From Eledone cirrhosa (Eukaryota): DNA of 64,000 bases. Below are positions 10,575 to 63,786 of this stretch, piece by piece. A program made the translations under genes and the position numbers. The stretch covers positions 316,262,001 through 316,326,000 of the forward strand of contig OZ024742.1 of NCBI GenBank assembly GCA_964016885.1, given 5' to 3'. The stretch's first letter is position 1, and each line of letters begins with the position of its first letter. Below the pieces are notes generated by a model, which had not been told where the DNA came from, ran no database searches, and saw only the letters and a program-made list of their open reading frames with translations.

Positions 10575-10930
10575 TAAGTTTATCCCGGGTTCAATCAGGG
10601 GTAACCACAGTAAGGTACTCAGTACAAAGCAGAGTATAAATATTTAATATAGAAAAGGACTAGAACTGGATCATTCGGGAGAAATCTTCAGGCAGCCGAC
10701 TGTCCAAGTAATATGGTGGTGTTTATTTCTTTTCTGGTGGTAGGAGAGGGTGGCGATTGGGATGGGTGGAGGTCATTGGTTGATGGGTTTAAAGAAAATG
10801 GAATTCTTTAAAAACTATACTTAGAGTAACAAAGGAAGAAAGAATTCTATAGACAAGTTCACTCTGGGTGTGCCACTCCGGATTTTTAAGGTTCACTTAA
10901 GCTAACAATGGCTTTGGTATGGTGTCTACA
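10575..10930 (-). mobile_element. Penelope pseudo-LTR-like element, family A, with a decayed hammerhead
   Basis: Homologous to 12943-13090, 33608-33810 and 50997-51430. The minus strand reads ctgaaga-tttctcccgaat-gatcc-agttctagtcct, with GAAAC mutated. Confidence 0.7.
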
Positions 10931-11555
10931 AACACACTCACACACGCACACATAATAGCCCTCACTCCCACACACTCGCACAAACATACATATATGTATA
11001 TATATATATATATATAGAATAGAATGAAACGAAATTTCATTTCTCACTCTTAGTACGTGCATATATGTATGTGTGCCTGTATGTATATATATATACATGC
11101 TACTGTACGTCTGTATACATACATGTATGTACGTATACATATATACATACATACTTACATATATATATATATATATATACCTTCCCTGTATATATCACAT
11201 ACATGTATGTGGTTGCGCGTGTGTGTATGTTTATACGCGTGCGTCCCTTCATCCTTGTATGTGTATATATTTCATCTCTTAGTCCCTGAGTCTGTATGTA
11301 CGCTAGTTCCATTATCTTATGTTTTCCCTCATGTATGTACTTACGCACACATTATTTCACTCTACACATGCATTTGTACATACACACACATGTACATTTG
11401 TAAGTGCATATACACACATTTATACACATCCCCTTACTATATTTCTTTATTTTTAATTTTTATACATCTCTTGTATTAATACTTTAATTTATTTTTTTGC
11501 CCGTTAAACTTTTTCCTTTCTTCAAGAGATTTTTCAAATATTTCACTATGTTTTA

Positions 11556-11633
11556 AATTGCCTTGTCTGATGAACGAATGCAGACGTTTCTTGTATTCGT
11601 CTTATTCGGGAAACCTCTGGTAATGAGGTAATT
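11556..11633 (+). ncRNA. Type I hammerhead ribozyme candidate
   Basis: Stem I aattgccttgt/atgaggtaatt (11 bp with GU pairs); CTGATGA 11567-73; stem II cgaat/attcg; GAAAC 11610-14; stem III ACC-tct-GGT; cleavage triplet GTA 11620-22. Confidence 0.75.
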
Positions 11634-11949
11634 ATACTGTATTGTTTATTATACATTAAATATTTAGCTCTGTAACTTACATAGAGCACTCTTCATTCCT
11701 CTGACTTTTTCAATTTTCAACGGAAACTTCAATACTTATATATATACACTAAATTGGGATAATACTTAAGTATATCCTAATGTTTGTTGAGTGAGATGGA
11801 GTTGGTCGGAGTATCGCTTAAGGCTTTCTCTGTTTATGTATTGACTGTATATATATATATATATATATATATATATATATATATATATATATACCATTTG
11901 TACTGCCTCTCTGTTTTTTGTTCTTGTCTAATATTTAACTATATATATA

Positions 11950-12913
11950 TATTTGTTGGGTGTTCCCTCCAAGACATGTTTAAAGCAGCGCGGAACATAC
12001 GTGTGTATGCCTCGTCTAGCTTTTTCTCCAGTTTCGACGTTAGCGTCCAAATGATAGAGCCATAAACAAGCACAGATCCACAGCAGCTCTGAAGAAATTC
12101 CTTTTCAGTTTGGCCGGCAGGTTTGATTTCCATATATTTTCCATTGCATTCAATGCTCCCCAGGCTTTTCCCAGTCTGATGTTAACATCATGTTCTGTGG
12201 AGGCGATATAGCTACCCAGGTATTTGAAGTCGTCAACTTGCTTGATTGTATCGCCGTTTAGACTTCGCATACCAACTGAGGAGTCTTGGTTCAGGCAAAT
12301 ATATTCTGTTTTGCCTGCGTTGACATAGAGTTCGTTTTCCTTTGCAACTGATTCGATGCTGTGAAGTAGTCATGTTGCATCCTTAAGGTAGTCAGCGAGG
12401 ACCGCTAAATCATCCGCATAGTCAGCATCGGTGATTTTCTGAGCTGCATGGCGTCTACACTTTCGCTTTGTGAGAGTGAAACCAAGCTCTAAGTTTTCGT
12501 CCAGGGCTTTTCTCAATACATAGTCGAGGCAGATGATAAAAATATATGGTGCAAGAGTATCCCCTGGAGCACTCCTGCAATGATGTCAAAGAAGTTGGTA
12601 TCTCCATCAGATGAGCCCAACAAATAAGGATCTCTATGGCAATATACCACCTATCAGCAGGTCAATACGTGGACAGAGACTCAGATTTGATGGCCACTGT
12701 TGGCGCAGCATGGAAGAAATAGCAGGTGATGTGTTGTTATGGAGTCCATCTCATGGAGCAAGAAACGGTGGTCGTCCCAAGAAGACATACGTCAAGCAAA
12801 TTGAGGACGATACTGGATGCACTGCGGAAGAACTGGCAAACGCTATGAGAGACAGAGATGGATGGAGGAAACGTGTCGTAGAAAGCCGAGCAAGCTCGAC
12901 CTGATGAGGATGA
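11950..12913. mobile_element. 5'-truncated RTE-clade LINE with internal inversion (RT on - 11950-12612, C-terminus on + 12615-12913)
   Basis: Minus strand encodes GVLQGDTLAP, DYADDL and FKYLGS. Plus strand encodes RLRFDGHCWR and MRDRDGWR, followed by a (GAT)-like tail. Confidence 0.9.
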
Positions 12914-12942
12914 TATATATATATGCACATATATATAATATT

Positions 12943-13090
12943 GAAATGGGTTCTACAGGACTAGAACTGATGATTTCCTCCAAATGAAACAGTTCTAGTC
13001 CTGTAGAAGCCGTTTCTATATTAAATATTTATACTCTGCTATGTATTGAGTATCTTAGTGTGGTTACCCCCGATTGAACCCGGGATAAAC
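12943..13090 (+). mobile_element. Family A fragment with hammerhead core and fold-back 5' end
   Basis: CTGATGA 12967-73, GAAACAG 12986-92, CTGT-A 13001-05. The 5' strand of stem I is replaced by an inverted copy of the 3' side. Confidence 0.75.
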
Positions 13091-60700: not shown

Positions 60701-62366
60701 TAGATGTAGGGGCTTCATGCATCCATATTGTATCTCTGTGTAAATATTTACTTGGGAACTGATCATATTACATGTAGTCTTGCTTGACTATATTTATATA
60801 TTCAAACTGCTGTATCAGGTTTTATAAGATGAAAGAAGTTTATATATGGATTTTTAGGTGGAGATTATCTTGTTTAAACGTACTTAGTGAACGGATGTTC
60901 TTGATATTAGTATACGTATTATTGTTGTTAGTAGCGCTTCTTGTAATGCTGGGATTATAAGGATGTTGCTGTTGATTTCTGTAAACTCAATTCTCTCTAG
61001 TTGTACAGACACTTAATACTAAGGCAGGTAATCAATTACTTGCAGGTGATTCCTTGCAGGTGATCTACAAACTCAGTATATTTGGATATGACTAAAATGT
61101 ATTAACATTAAGTGTCTTATAGAAATTGGGAGGGTTGCAACAAGTCGTGGTGGGGTCCAAACAGAAGATATTAACATACAAAGATTGTTACTTTAGGATA
61201 TTTCACTGTTATTTCTTTTATTTCTTTTGTTTTTGAATAGATGCATCTCCCTTCATGCACCAACGGAAAACATAAGGGTTTCCTTATTATGATCACAAGT
61301 AAAAAGAAGTTTTGAACAAACGTTTATAGAATTTACGTCTCATCTGGTACGTTTAAGAAATATTTTGGCAATCATGAACTGCAGAGACACAAACCATTCA
61401 CTATGTAAGACTTCTATTATTTACGTATCTATGTGTACCGTTTAATTAAATACCTTGTAATTCGTTCGATGTATTTAGTTCAATGTTCAGTTGTATGTTA
61501 CGTTAGTATACTTAAATCTCTGTAAGTAGATTGGTGTTTGATTAGGTTGATGTTTTTAATTTTCGGTGTTTTGTTCAATATCTTCTGTGTTGTATTTTGT
61601 TCAATAGCATCAGTGTGTTTATGTTGTGTCCAACGGTAAATTTAGTATGTTTTGTATCCAATCTATTGTGTTTATCAACATGTTATGTCTTGAGTATAAT
61701 TTGCTATTTAGTCATTTTTAGTACGTTATTGTTTATCGTTTGAGGAATTAATCTAATCTAATCGAATCTAGCCGAGTTTACACTCGCAAATAAAAAGAAC
61801 CAGGGCCGCCACTAGGAGTATTGGATTTGGTGTACTTCATATTTGTTTCGGTTGCTGAATACAATCAGGGGTCGCTGCTTCTCCTGAAGGTCAATAGTTC
61901 TCTTCTCACTCGAGCGGGAGCATATTTCCATTGTCAATTTGCATTGATCATCTGCAAAGCTGCATTGTTCTGAGAACCACTACACCAGTCTTTCGATGCG
62001 TGCAGCTGGAACTACTGCCGCCCATTGATTTGGCAGGATTTTTTTTTTTAGATGGCCGTTGACTTTTGAGTTCTTCCGCCCTTTGTCAGGTATTGTTTTT
62101 TGTCCTGCAGGGTGTCCAAAATCAACCTCCTCACCAAGTAAACTTGGTGGGGTTGCCGGTTTAGTCGCTGATGATCCGACCATGCGACAGGTTGTACTCA
62201 AGAATGACGTGACATTTATGAGCTAAATTCACTATCATTATATAAGTCTTTCCATTTTCTAGGGTTTAAGGCATTATGTATATATTGTCGTATTTATAAT
62301 GTGCTAACTACTATGTATAAGGATTATATTCAGACATTATTTTATGTAATTTGGTGTGTTTAGTTA

Positions 62367-62586
62367 AATCGGGTGAATTGGCAATATCCGGAGAGAGTCG
62401 GACGCCATGTTTTGTCGCATAGATTTGCGGTCCTTTACGGTCTGAGTTCAAATCCCGCTGAGGTTAACTTTGTCTTTCATCCTTACGGGGTCGATAAAAT
62501 AAAGTACCAATAATGCACTGGGATAATTGCTGGCCTTGTGCCAAAAGTATAAACAATTATTTAAAGTAATTTGGTGTGTTTAGTTA
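62367..62586 (+). mobile_element. Full-length SINE with 21-bp target-site duplication
   Basis: TSD gtaatttggtgtgtttagtta at 62346-66 and 62566-86. Confidence 0.92.
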
Positions 62587-63147
62587 CATTTAAATAGTTA
62601 TTGGTGTTAATTTCGTTATACATAAATCAGTGTGATTTATATATTTTTAAAACTGTTAATTGTTTTTTTTTATAATGCTGCATACAATTTAATACATCTT
62701 AGCCAATACTTCCGGTCCTAACAACATAATTTCATATAGAATTTACTTCAATATAGTTGGTATTCTGCATGTATGTATATATATATTCGTATATATTCGT
62801 TTCAGTACAAGTGTGTATTTGCTTTTATATGTGTGTATTTGGTAGAATATTTATTACAAAGTGTGTGGTTCTATGTGACTGTCTTATAAATATAACTTGG
62901 TATATAATTACTACGTCACTGAATGACCTCCGAGTAAAGGGATTGGTATTAGTGAAGACAACCAGCTGTAAAAACTATGTTAATTAAGCTGGAATGTATT
63001 TAGTGAAACATGGTCTTGAAAACCCCTAGGAAAAAGTAACCCAATTAAAAGCTGGCTTCGTTTCTAACAACTCACCCAACCCATGTTAACATGGAAAATT
63101 GGACATAAAATAATGATCTCGACGATGATATTTATAACGTCTCCTTT

Positions 63148-63368
63148 TCTATTTAAGCGGCCACTGCCATCGTGCCACCTACGAGGCTATGTCCGCATTA
63201 GTGCTTTGGAAACCACAAGCAGTCACTAATAACAGGGGGCGCAAGCACTCCTTCCGCGATGTCATCTCCAGAGATTCTATGACTTGGCGACGCAATGAAC
63301 GACAGGCCCACGTGGAGATCAATTATTGAGTCCATTTCGGCTGAGGCAGCCGGATGATGATGATGATT
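63148..63368 (+). mobile_element. 3' fragment of an RTE LINE
   Basis: LLWKP...AMNDRPTWR-like translation and (GAT)n tail. Confidence 0.7.
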
Positions 63369-63720
63369 TAATCGGTCAAAAGTGTTCCCCTTTCAATTTC
63401 TATATATATCATTTTCTCGACGTCTATCTGTCTCTCTCTGTTTCTCTATTTATCCCGCACATCTCCCTATCTCATTTTCACCTTTTCTCTTACTTACTCT
63501 CATAGAATCAGCTTCACAATGTTGTGAGAGTGTCTTGAGAGGCCAACCAAGAAGCATCATTCTTTCACATAATAGAACTGGAGGTTCGCAACCTATTTGC
63601 ATTAGAGTATGCTAGTAAAACTCGCAAAGTAACCATAGGGATTAACGAATGTTGACGTGCAAATGTATCGTAAGGTATGGGGTGGTTAAATTGGGTAAAT
63701 GATATAAATATATATATATA

Positions 63721-63786
63721 TCATTAGTTCGGATCTAGCTGTCGAAACGGCCGGAGCACAGCCGTCGGGATCCTGAGTCTTTTCAT
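63721..63786 (+). mobile_element. 66-bp insert in (TA)n carrying the 3' half of a hammerhead (palindrome family)
   Basis: gtc-GAAACGGC-cggagcaca-GCCGTC-gggat. Confidence 0.65.

What the first reader, a model, noticed from the sequence alone, without database searches (positions are those of the whole stretch)
10575..63786. Hammerhead hotspot: about ten complete or near-complete type I folds from about six families in 64 kb
Seen: folds at 11556, 12967, 16241, 17854(-), 19368, 33669 (plus its mirror), 50600, 51380, 51952 and 52426, with partial or decayed ones at about 10660, 26250, 33285 and 63743. The families share only the catalytic core. Two lie directly 3' of Penelope coding remnants, and nearly all are embedded in (TA)n. 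Established: Penelope pseudo-LTRs carry HHRs. Inference: this genome may host a large, diverse Penelope/ribozyme/circRNA system that is invisible to ORF annotation and might cut any host pre-mRNA transcribed through it.
Basis: partly seen in the sequence, partly recalled or inferred. Interest (0 to 1): 0.8.

Follow-up and report, generated by a model that had tools for sequence, protein, structure and literature searches.

The report
Genome-wide hammerheads from Penelope-like retroelements
These are real hammerhead ribozyme folds in the ends of Penelope-like jumping genes and of one short tandem passenger element, but the window is no richer than the rest of the genome, which by extrapolation likely holds about 200,000 such folds whose RNA cutting is untested.

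Summary
The folds are real, the hotspot is not. Eight of the ten main sites are complete type I hammerhead folds (six canonical cores, two with the known U3-A8 core variant), from six insertions and five families. 12967 is a fold-back hairpin without stem I; 16241 has a C3A change. A descriptor finds 7 canonical-core hits against 0.08 in shuffles, but 98 genome stretches give 63 per Mb (4 per 64 kb; P of 7 or more = 0.16), about 130,000-260,000 genome-wide. The folds lie in the 3' ends of TA-targeting Penelope-like elements whose proteins carry Hydra-clade motifs (DKT, CxCx5C, CxxC..E..N..CxH). One family (474-bp tandem unit, 10,718 exact cores) is a non-LTR retrozyme-like passenger; its arrays show the Penelope two-end 'tail' and a mirror arm, pointing to copying by Penelope RT, likely from a circle. 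No RNA data were available, no host gene was shown, and mirror copies are predicted to be locked in hairpins, so cutting of host pre-mRNA is unsupported. Known kind; unusual scale.

The parts
11556..11633 (+). Family D type I hammerhead fold, canonical core, GUA cut predicted after 11622
   Evidence: stems 11/6/3; relatives at L061, L141, L121
10657..10691 (-). Family A decayed copy (GAAA reads GAUC, stem I lost)
12951..13008 (+). Family A fold-back hairpin with both core halves but no stem I; not a competent hammerhead
12584..12901 (+). LINE-type RT C-terminal remnant (not Penelope) just 5' of 12967
   Evidence: matches the window's LINE RT (E 2e-4), not the PLE protein; RTE label recalled
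15735..15860 (+). Penelope-like endonuclease C-terminal remnant 5' of family E fold
   Evidence: tblastn E 7e-4
16227..16289 (+). Family E hammerhead with C3A change (decayed)
   Evidence: relative L184 has an intact core
17760..19476 (.). Family B insertion: 1.64-kb palindrome (17839-19476) plus an 80-base tail on the left arm only
17854..17947 (-). Family B hammerhead, U3-A8 core, GUC cut predicted at 17859
19368..19461 (+). Family B hammerhead, U3-A8 core, mirror of 17854, cut predicted after 19456
26247..26269 (+). Family B 3' half only (5'-truncated copy)
33285..33352 (+). Partial fold, GAAAC box incomplete; unverified
33616..33666 (-). Family A mirror copy with A9U
33669..33719 (+). Family A hammerhead, canonical core, predicted to be locked in a hairpin with its mirror
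48295..50181 (+). Frameshifted, 5'-truncated Penelope-like ORF (RT, CxCx5C linker, C-terminal GIY-YIG-type endonuclease) with Hydra-clade motifs
50600..50716 (+). Family F hammerhead with 89-base stem II arm, about 420 bases 3' of the ORF; GUU cut predicted after 50712
   Evidence: same ORF-fold link at L164, L050
51380..51430 (+). Family A hammerhead, canonical core, GUA cut predicted after 51424
51523..52783 (+). Family C array: short mirror arm plus 2.6 tandem units of 474 bp, retrozyme-like
51952..51996 (+). Family C hammerhead with palindromic stem III, cut predicted after 51989
52426..52470 (+). Family C hammerhead, second unit, cut predicted after 52463
63744..63766 (+). Family B 3' half only

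Best explanation
The sites are type I hammerhead folds in the 3' terminal repeats of TA-targeting Penelope-like retroelements, likely of the Hydra clade, and in one non-coding 474-bp tandem family that these elements likely mobilise, at a density typical of the whole genome. Shown: folds, families, copy numbers, link to PLE ORFs (B, E, F; A by adjacency), mirror arms and two fixed 3' ends. Inferred: the element's endonuclease nicks (TA)n and its RT starts at two internal RNA sites, giving one long and one short end and a 5'-truncated mirror arm, so most copies are just the hammerhead-bearing end. Inferred: in source elements the hammerhead cuts the transcript into unit lengths, probably as a dimer through the palindromic stem III, and for family C the unit is ligated into a circle that RT runs round more than once. 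Most dispersed copies are probably passengers that cut weakly or not at all.
For: 7 hits against 0.083 in shuffles; 62 against 0-3 in shuffles of 0.98 Mb, and 0 for control cores G5C and G3-C8; stem III plus loop fully self-complementary in 37 of 62, as described for PLE hammerheads (PMC4209133, PMC6765202). Family B: of the first 100 of 5,839 core matches, 75 UUGANAA, 23 CUGANAA, 2 UUGAAGA, 0 CUGANGA, position 7 taking all four bases; a PLE endonuclease ORF ends about 1.15 kb upstream. Hydra motifs in the window ORF and the 828-aa ORF beside the window (PMC8557442 section 11). Two end classes: B 15 short, 14 long, 1 none of 30; A 15 short, 13 long, 2 none of 30; C: 20 of 28 arrays show one arm ending at unit position 300-318 and the other at 250-259, none with two of a kind, 6 single-armed, 2 unclear (read by eye); PMC11167929 ties this tail to two RT start sites. 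C units differ 0.85% within an arm, 1.3% between arms, 3.8% between loci.
Against: No cleavage or expression data. Rfam scores none; Pfam and PDB do not recognise the PLE protein, so the clade rests on motifs, not a tree. In ViennaRNA none of the folds is the minimum-energy structure (1.8-10.5 kcal/mol above for the non-mirror sites). Family A's ORF link rests on one PLE family lying beside 5 of 25 loci; for D no ORF link was tested. 23 of 100 family B cores have a C3.A8 mismatch, which speaks against strict selection on cleavage. Identical units could also arise by tandem duplication after insertion; one array shows alternating variants. In anole, hammerhead mutants did not impair insertion in vitro (PMC11167929).
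Confidence: 0.8

Rival explanations
1. A local hotspot: this window is specially rich in ribozymes, for example a selected cluster or a piRNA-like trap.
For: 7 hits against a genome mean of 4.05 per 64 kb; non-mirrored copies lie 9 on + and 1 on - (two-sided p 0.02, post hoc).
Against: P(7 or more) = 0.16 by resampling; single 10-kb stretches elsewhere hold 6 and 7; flanks hold 12 in 120 kb; strands are balanced in the spaced set (28 +, 34 -).
Confidence: 0.05
2. Family C is a satellite that arose from a PLE end and grew by DNA-level tandem duplication, with no circular RNA.
For: Identical neighbouring units and alternating variants in one array; unit contains a microsatellite; the preprint 10.64898/2026.07.22.740005 discusses this route.
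Against: Dispersed arrays with fixed 3' ends, variable 5' ends and multimers on both arms; locus-private variants shared by both arms.
Confidence: 0.25
3. The folds are active in host pre-mRNAs and shape gene expression across the genome.
For: At 63 per Mb a 100-kb transcription unit would carry about three sense folds (arithmetic); families B and D have stable stem III; Xenopus retrozymes are depleted in genes (10.64898/2026.07.22.740005).
Against: No host gene or RNA shown here; mirror pairs are predicted to form hairpins; weak in vitro activity (PMC4209133); 1 of 9 Xenopus dimers cleaved (preprint); no read ends at the cut in anole RNA-seq (PMC11167929).
Confidence: 0.15
4. Chance matches in AT-rich repetitive DNA.
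For: Descriptor was relaxed after inspection; 55344(-) and 25430 are probably such matches; 12967 is a mere hairpin.
Against: About 50-fold excess over shuffles in independent sequence, none for control cores; unrelated families keep the same geometry.
Confidence: 0.02

Closest known systems
PLE pseudo-LTR type I hammerheads (Cervera and de la Pena 2014, PMC4209133)
   Same: Dispersed families, short palindromic stem III, unpaired base at the foot of stem II, opposite-strand pairs 100-700 bp apart, a U3-A8 family (about 1,300 hits in Schistosoma Cercyon).
   Different: Counts there are 2,000-9,000 per genome; here about 190,000 canonical plus about 40,000 U3-A8 by extrapolation; families A, B and D have 3-6 bp stems III that may allow monomer folding.
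Hydra clade of Penelope-like elements (Craig et al. 2021, PMC8557442; includes Hydra-1_Obim from Octopus bimaculoides)
   Same: C-terminal endonuclease, DKT, RW[K/R], CxCx5C linker, CxxC and CxH round E and N, (TA)n insertion, canonical hammerheads, tail and mirror structure.
   Different: Described as few families outside cnidarians; here many diverged families at high copy. Not placed on a tree; not compared with Hydra-1_Obim.
Metazoan non-LTR retrozymes (Cervera and de la Pena 2020, PMC7229834; preprint 10.64898/2026.07.22.740005)
   Same: Family C: non-coding tandem units each with a type I hammerhead, U.U at the foot of stem II as in axolotl HHR_Amex2.
   Different: Unit 460-540 bp with an internal microsatellite; arrays carry the PLE tail and mirror arm, structural evidence of PLE mobilisation that the preprint argues from co-occurrence and trees; no RNA evidence here.
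Schistosoma Sm-alpha and axolotl hammerhead loads
   Same: Very high genome-wide numbers (about 38,500, PMC2770079; 126,247, PMC7229834).
   Different: Absolute estimate here is higher; density (63 per Mb) is about 14 times axolotl's but of the same order as Schistosoma (genome size about 0.4 Gb, recalled); methods differ.

Membership tests
Type I hammerhead ribozyme | Core CUGANGA ... GAAA ... NUH (or covariant U3-A8) | tested here: met
   6 canonical and 2 U3-A8 sites; not met for 16247, 33660, 10691, 33292
Type I hammerhead ribozyme | Stems I, II, III round the core with stem I open | tested here: met
   not met for 12967
Type I hammerhead ribozyme | Match to curated Rfam hammerhead models | tested here: not met
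   (no hammerhead among the 150 rows shown of 233); models do not cover these variants (inference)
Type I hammerhead ribozyme | Tertiary contact between stems I and II | not tested
   PLE variants are reported to lack it (PMC7761336 passage)
Type I hammerhead ribozyme | Site-specific self-cleavage | not testable with these tools
   no RNA holder listed
Penelope-like element | RT followed by GIY-YIG-type endonuclease in one ORF | tested here: met
   YRDD RT and ..VY..YIG/YVG motifs in window ORF and L147 ORF; Pfam gave no hit, so read from motifs
Penelope-like element | Inverted 5'-truncated arm and a tail at one end only | tested here: met
Hydra clade PLE | DKT in place of DKG | tested here: met
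   window 48307 and L147, L169, L187, L090, L028
Hydra clade PLE | CxCx5C linker; CxxC and CxH round conserved E and N | tested here: met
   (window 49765; for the C-terminus)
Hydra clade PLE | RWK motif | tested here: inconclusive
   RWR in L147, L090, L118; RWK in L238; window copy truncated before it
Hydra clade PLE | Insertion into (TA)n | tested here: met
Hydra clade PLE | Absence of the CCHH motif; placement on an RT tree | not tested
   no reference PLE proteins were held
Neptune or Naiad PLE | CX2-5CxxC linker with DKG (Neptune); N-terminal endonuclease (Naiad) | tested here: not met
   the ORFs linked to families B and F have CxCx5C, DKT and a C-terminal endonuclease
Non-LTR retrozyme (family C) | Tandem units of a few hundred bases, each with a type I hammerhead | tested here: met
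Non-LTR retrozyme (family C) | No protein-coding capacity | tested here: inconclusive
   only short frames and no PLE match inside arrays; frames not searched against protein databases
Non-LTR retrozyme (family C) | Expressed as linear and circular RNA | not testable with these tools

The most novel reading that the evidence does not exclude
This genome carries the largest hammerhead load on record (about 230,000 folds, dozens of Hydra-clade families), and its 474-bp family is a circular-RNA parasite copied by rolling-circle Penelope RT from two fixed internal start sites, so its arrays record the debated role of PLE hammerheads directly; a fraction of monomer-competent folds cut host pre-mRNAs and are purged from the sense strand of introns.
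Probability: 0.3. Interest if true: 0.72.

Novelty: new member of a known kind. Interest (0 to 1): 0.45.

Why it matters
What PLE hammerheads do in vivo is still open (PMC8557442, PMC11167929, PMC7761336). A genome with about 2 x 10^5 folds in many families, a young tandem family bearing the PLE RT signature, and a 5,800-copy U3-A8 family gives unusual statistical power: intron strand bias, read ends at predicted cuts and circle junctions can all be tested with ordinary annotation and RNA-seq. The window itself is ordinary for this genome.

Tried and rejected
Rfam at gathering and E-value thresholds: no hammerhead. First descriptor demanding a 10.1-11.1 pair: 0 exact-core hits. One-mismatch cores are not above chance enough to count (10 hits against mean 1.5, max 6). 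DNA search of the genome with family C returned nothing because common words are skipped. No RNA holder listed; two runs of unrecorded kind laid on family C gave only high contig depth, nothing on expression. My first labels Naiad, then Neptune, were dropped after motif checks. Reading 17854/19368 as decayed was dropped. Pfam and PDB searches of the PLE ORF were blank. Family C circle folds at z = -9 against 40 shuffles, discounted because its TA-rich hairpin drives it. A host gene could not be established: the 12-kb 54-bp repeat has three open frames, and frames with stops were not scanned with Pfam. Lunse et al. 2017 was not held. Earlier findings: none returned.
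Full report
1. Observation. The listed coordinates match real sequence. Rfam reports no hammerhead, and a first descriptor demanding a pair at 10.1-11.1 found no exact-core hit. A descriptor with CUGANGA, GAAA, UH, stem I of 4 or more, stem II of 3 or more (first pair free) and stem III of 2 or more finds 7 sites: cores at 11567, 33675, 50604, 51386, 51959, 52433 on + and 55344 on -; 60 block-wise dinucleotide shuffles give mean 0.083, maximum 1. 55344 has no relative in the loci held and lies 20-27 kcal/mol above the minimum fold; I count it as chance. 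Because the descriptor was relaxed after inspection, the independent test is the genome sample below.

2. Site by site. 17854(-) and 19368(+) are the arms of one 1.64-kb palindrome with core UUGAGAA. This is not decay: a pattern with positions 3, 7 and 8 free has 5,839 genome matches, and of the first 100 listed 75 are UUGANAA, 23 CUGANAA, 2 UUGAAGA and none CUGANGA. U3-A8 is a known natural, active covariant (PMC3088659, passages; PMC4209133, parts 1-2 of 4 read). 51952 and 52426 are units of one 474-bp tandem. 12967 is a 19-bp inverted repeat with no stem I beside the core; the remnant 5' of it resembles the window's LINE RT, not the PLE protein. 16247 has C3A relative to its one other exact-pattern relative. 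The mirror of 33669 has A9U; 26247 and 63744 are 3' halves; 10691(-) is decayed; 33285 is unverified. Result: 8 of 10 main sites complete, 6 insertions, 5 families, plus decayed family E.

3. Not a hotspot. I requested 100 evenly spaced 10-kb stretches over contigs C1-C28; 98 exist. They hold 62 canonical-core folds in 0.98 Mb (63 per Mb, bootstrap 43-87); five shuffles give 0-3; control cores G5C and G3-C8 give 0, A9U 2, A3-U8 4; U3-A8 gives 18 against 3-8. P(7 or more in 64 kb) is 0.16, P(6 or more) 0.23. The 12 flanking stretches hold 12 in 119.8 kb. Extrapolated to 2,996 Mb this is about 186,000 canonical folds (129,000-260,000) and about 41,000 U3-A8 folds; positions were picked by hand at round numbers and small contigs were not sampled. 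The 62 hits plus 7 window sites fall into 27 clusters. Exact or near-exact patterns count 10,718 (family C core), 27,663 (family A 3' half) and 40,269 (family B 3' half), each with 0 for the reversed control.

4. What carries them. 50600 lies about 420 bases 3' of a frameshifted ORF at 48295-50181 with RT, a CNCx5C linker and a C-terminal endonuclease; 16241 lies about 390 bases 3' of an endonuclease remnant at 15735-15860. Family B copies elsewhere follow such an ORF by about 1.15 kb. One PLE family lies beside 5 of 25 family A loci and at that identity nowhere else in the loci held, but A has no ORF in its 450 upstream bases, so its link is by adjacency. An open 828-aa relative sits just right of the window (L147). 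These proteins show DKT, RW[R/K], CxCx5C and CxxC..E..LN..CxH, the features given for the Hydra clade, which inserts into (TA)n and carries canonical hammerheads (PMC8557442, section 11 and passages; its supplement lists Hydra-1_Obim). Pfam and PDB give no hit; no tree was built. That the host is an octopus is my recall from its repeats and comes from no call.

5. Mechanism. Families A, B and C each have two fixed 3' ends abutting (TA)n: B 15 short, 14 long, 1 none of 30; A 15, 13, 2 of 30. For C, 20 of 28 arrays have one arm ending at unit position 300-318 and the opposite arm at 250-259; 6 show one arm, 2 are unclear, none has two of a kind (read by eye; L008 and L011 counted as one). In an anole PLE this tail is the stretch between two internal RT start sites (PMC11167929, passages). 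So C, which has no ORF, was likely laid down by PLE RT. Its units differ by 0.85% within an arm (47 pairs), 1.3% between arms (22 pairs) and 3.8% between loci (378 pairs) over 100 bases, and both arms can be multimeric: each locus came from one template, as expected if RT ran round a circle made by cutting at the hammerhead and ligation. Later DNA duplication could contribute. Stem III plus loop is fully self-complementary in 37 of 62 sampled folds, the dimer design reported for PLE hammerheads (PMC4209133; PMC6765202, passages). Cleavage, ligation and expression are inferred, not shown; no RNA holder was listed.

6. Host pre-mRNA. No host gene was established. 16 of 62 sampled folds are in mirror pairs; at 33669 the hairpin is 74 kcal/mol below the ribozyme fold, and the family B arms pair at -228 kcal/mol over 120 bases. 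Published activity is low: weak even as dimers (PMC4209133), 1 of 9 Xenopus dimers cleaved (10.64898/2026.07.22.740005, parts 1-3 of 5 read), no read ends at the anole cut site. Against this caution, families B and D have stable stems III and fold within 2-3 kcal/mol of the minimum, and non-mirrored copies in the window are 9 on + and 1 on - (p 0.02, post hoc), a bias absent from the spaced set.

7. Novelty. Every element is of a known kind: PLE hammerheads, the U3-A8 core, Hydra PLEs in an octopus, non-LTR retrozymes and their proposed PLE origin. Searches for hammerhead with Penelope and octopus, with retrozyme and cephalopod terms, and for counts showed no hammerhead census for a cephalopod; a 2026 Octopus vulgaris repeat annotation does not contain the words ribozyme or hammerhead (PMC13282606). 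The library lacks most subscription papers, Lunse et al. 2017 was not held, and preprint supplements were not seen. The largest counts I read are 126,247 in axolotl (PMC7229834, parts 2-3 of 6) and about 38,500 in Schistosoma mansoni (PMC2770079, passages); the estimate here is larger in number but not clearly in density than the latter. What is new is scale, the Hydra-clade attribution and the PLE tail on a tandem retrozyme-like family.

8. Verdict. Observation partly confirmed; interpretation partly supported; new member of a known kind; interest 0.45.

Noticed in passing
L147:2740-5223 (about 2.7-5.2 kb right of the window end): Open 828-aa Penelope-like ORF with Hydra-clade motifs, a complete hammerhead and its mirror remnant about 2.2 kb upstream; no Pfam or PDB match.
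   Followed up: partly
window 1-6040, continuing about 5.9 kb to the left: 12-kb array of a 54-bp unit with three open frames (Thr-rich on -, Gly/Ser/Cys-rich and Val-rich on +); mucin-like exon or plain minisatellite, undecided.
   Followed up: partly
window 10615-63766: Non-mirrored hammerhead-bearing copies lie 9 on + and 1 on - (post hoc p 0.02); could reflect an unseen minus-strand transcription unit.
   Followed up: partly
window 17808-17818, 26312-26322, 33751-33761, 51044-51054, 10615-10625: Tails of families A and B share an 11-base motif although their hammerheads differ; possible RT or endonuclease recognition site.
   Followed up: no
L060, L063, L101, L113, L120, L236 (spaced genome stretches): At least three further families with U3-A8 cores besides family B.
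   Followed up: no
window 9785-10491 (-): Second decayed Penelope-like RT remnant.
   Followed up: no
window 40191-43353 (-), 53151-54800 (-), 12043-12901, 26505-27221: LINE remnants (endonuclease and zf-RVT; RT with PHD finger; an inverted RT fragment) and a transposase-like remnant (mariner-like by recall).
   Followed up: partly
window 6277-6592, 7672-7856, 28161-28660, 31238-31448, 62372-62573: High-copy short repeat family, often in inverted pairs (SINE-like by recall).
   Followed up: no
window 24444-24515 (-): tRNA-like sequence (Rfam 41 bits), possibly a SINE head.
   Followed up: no
window 46951-47100: Very high-copy repeat with mirror arms and TA ends; its one-mismatch hammerhead-like hit at 47045 was not pursued.
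   Followed up: no
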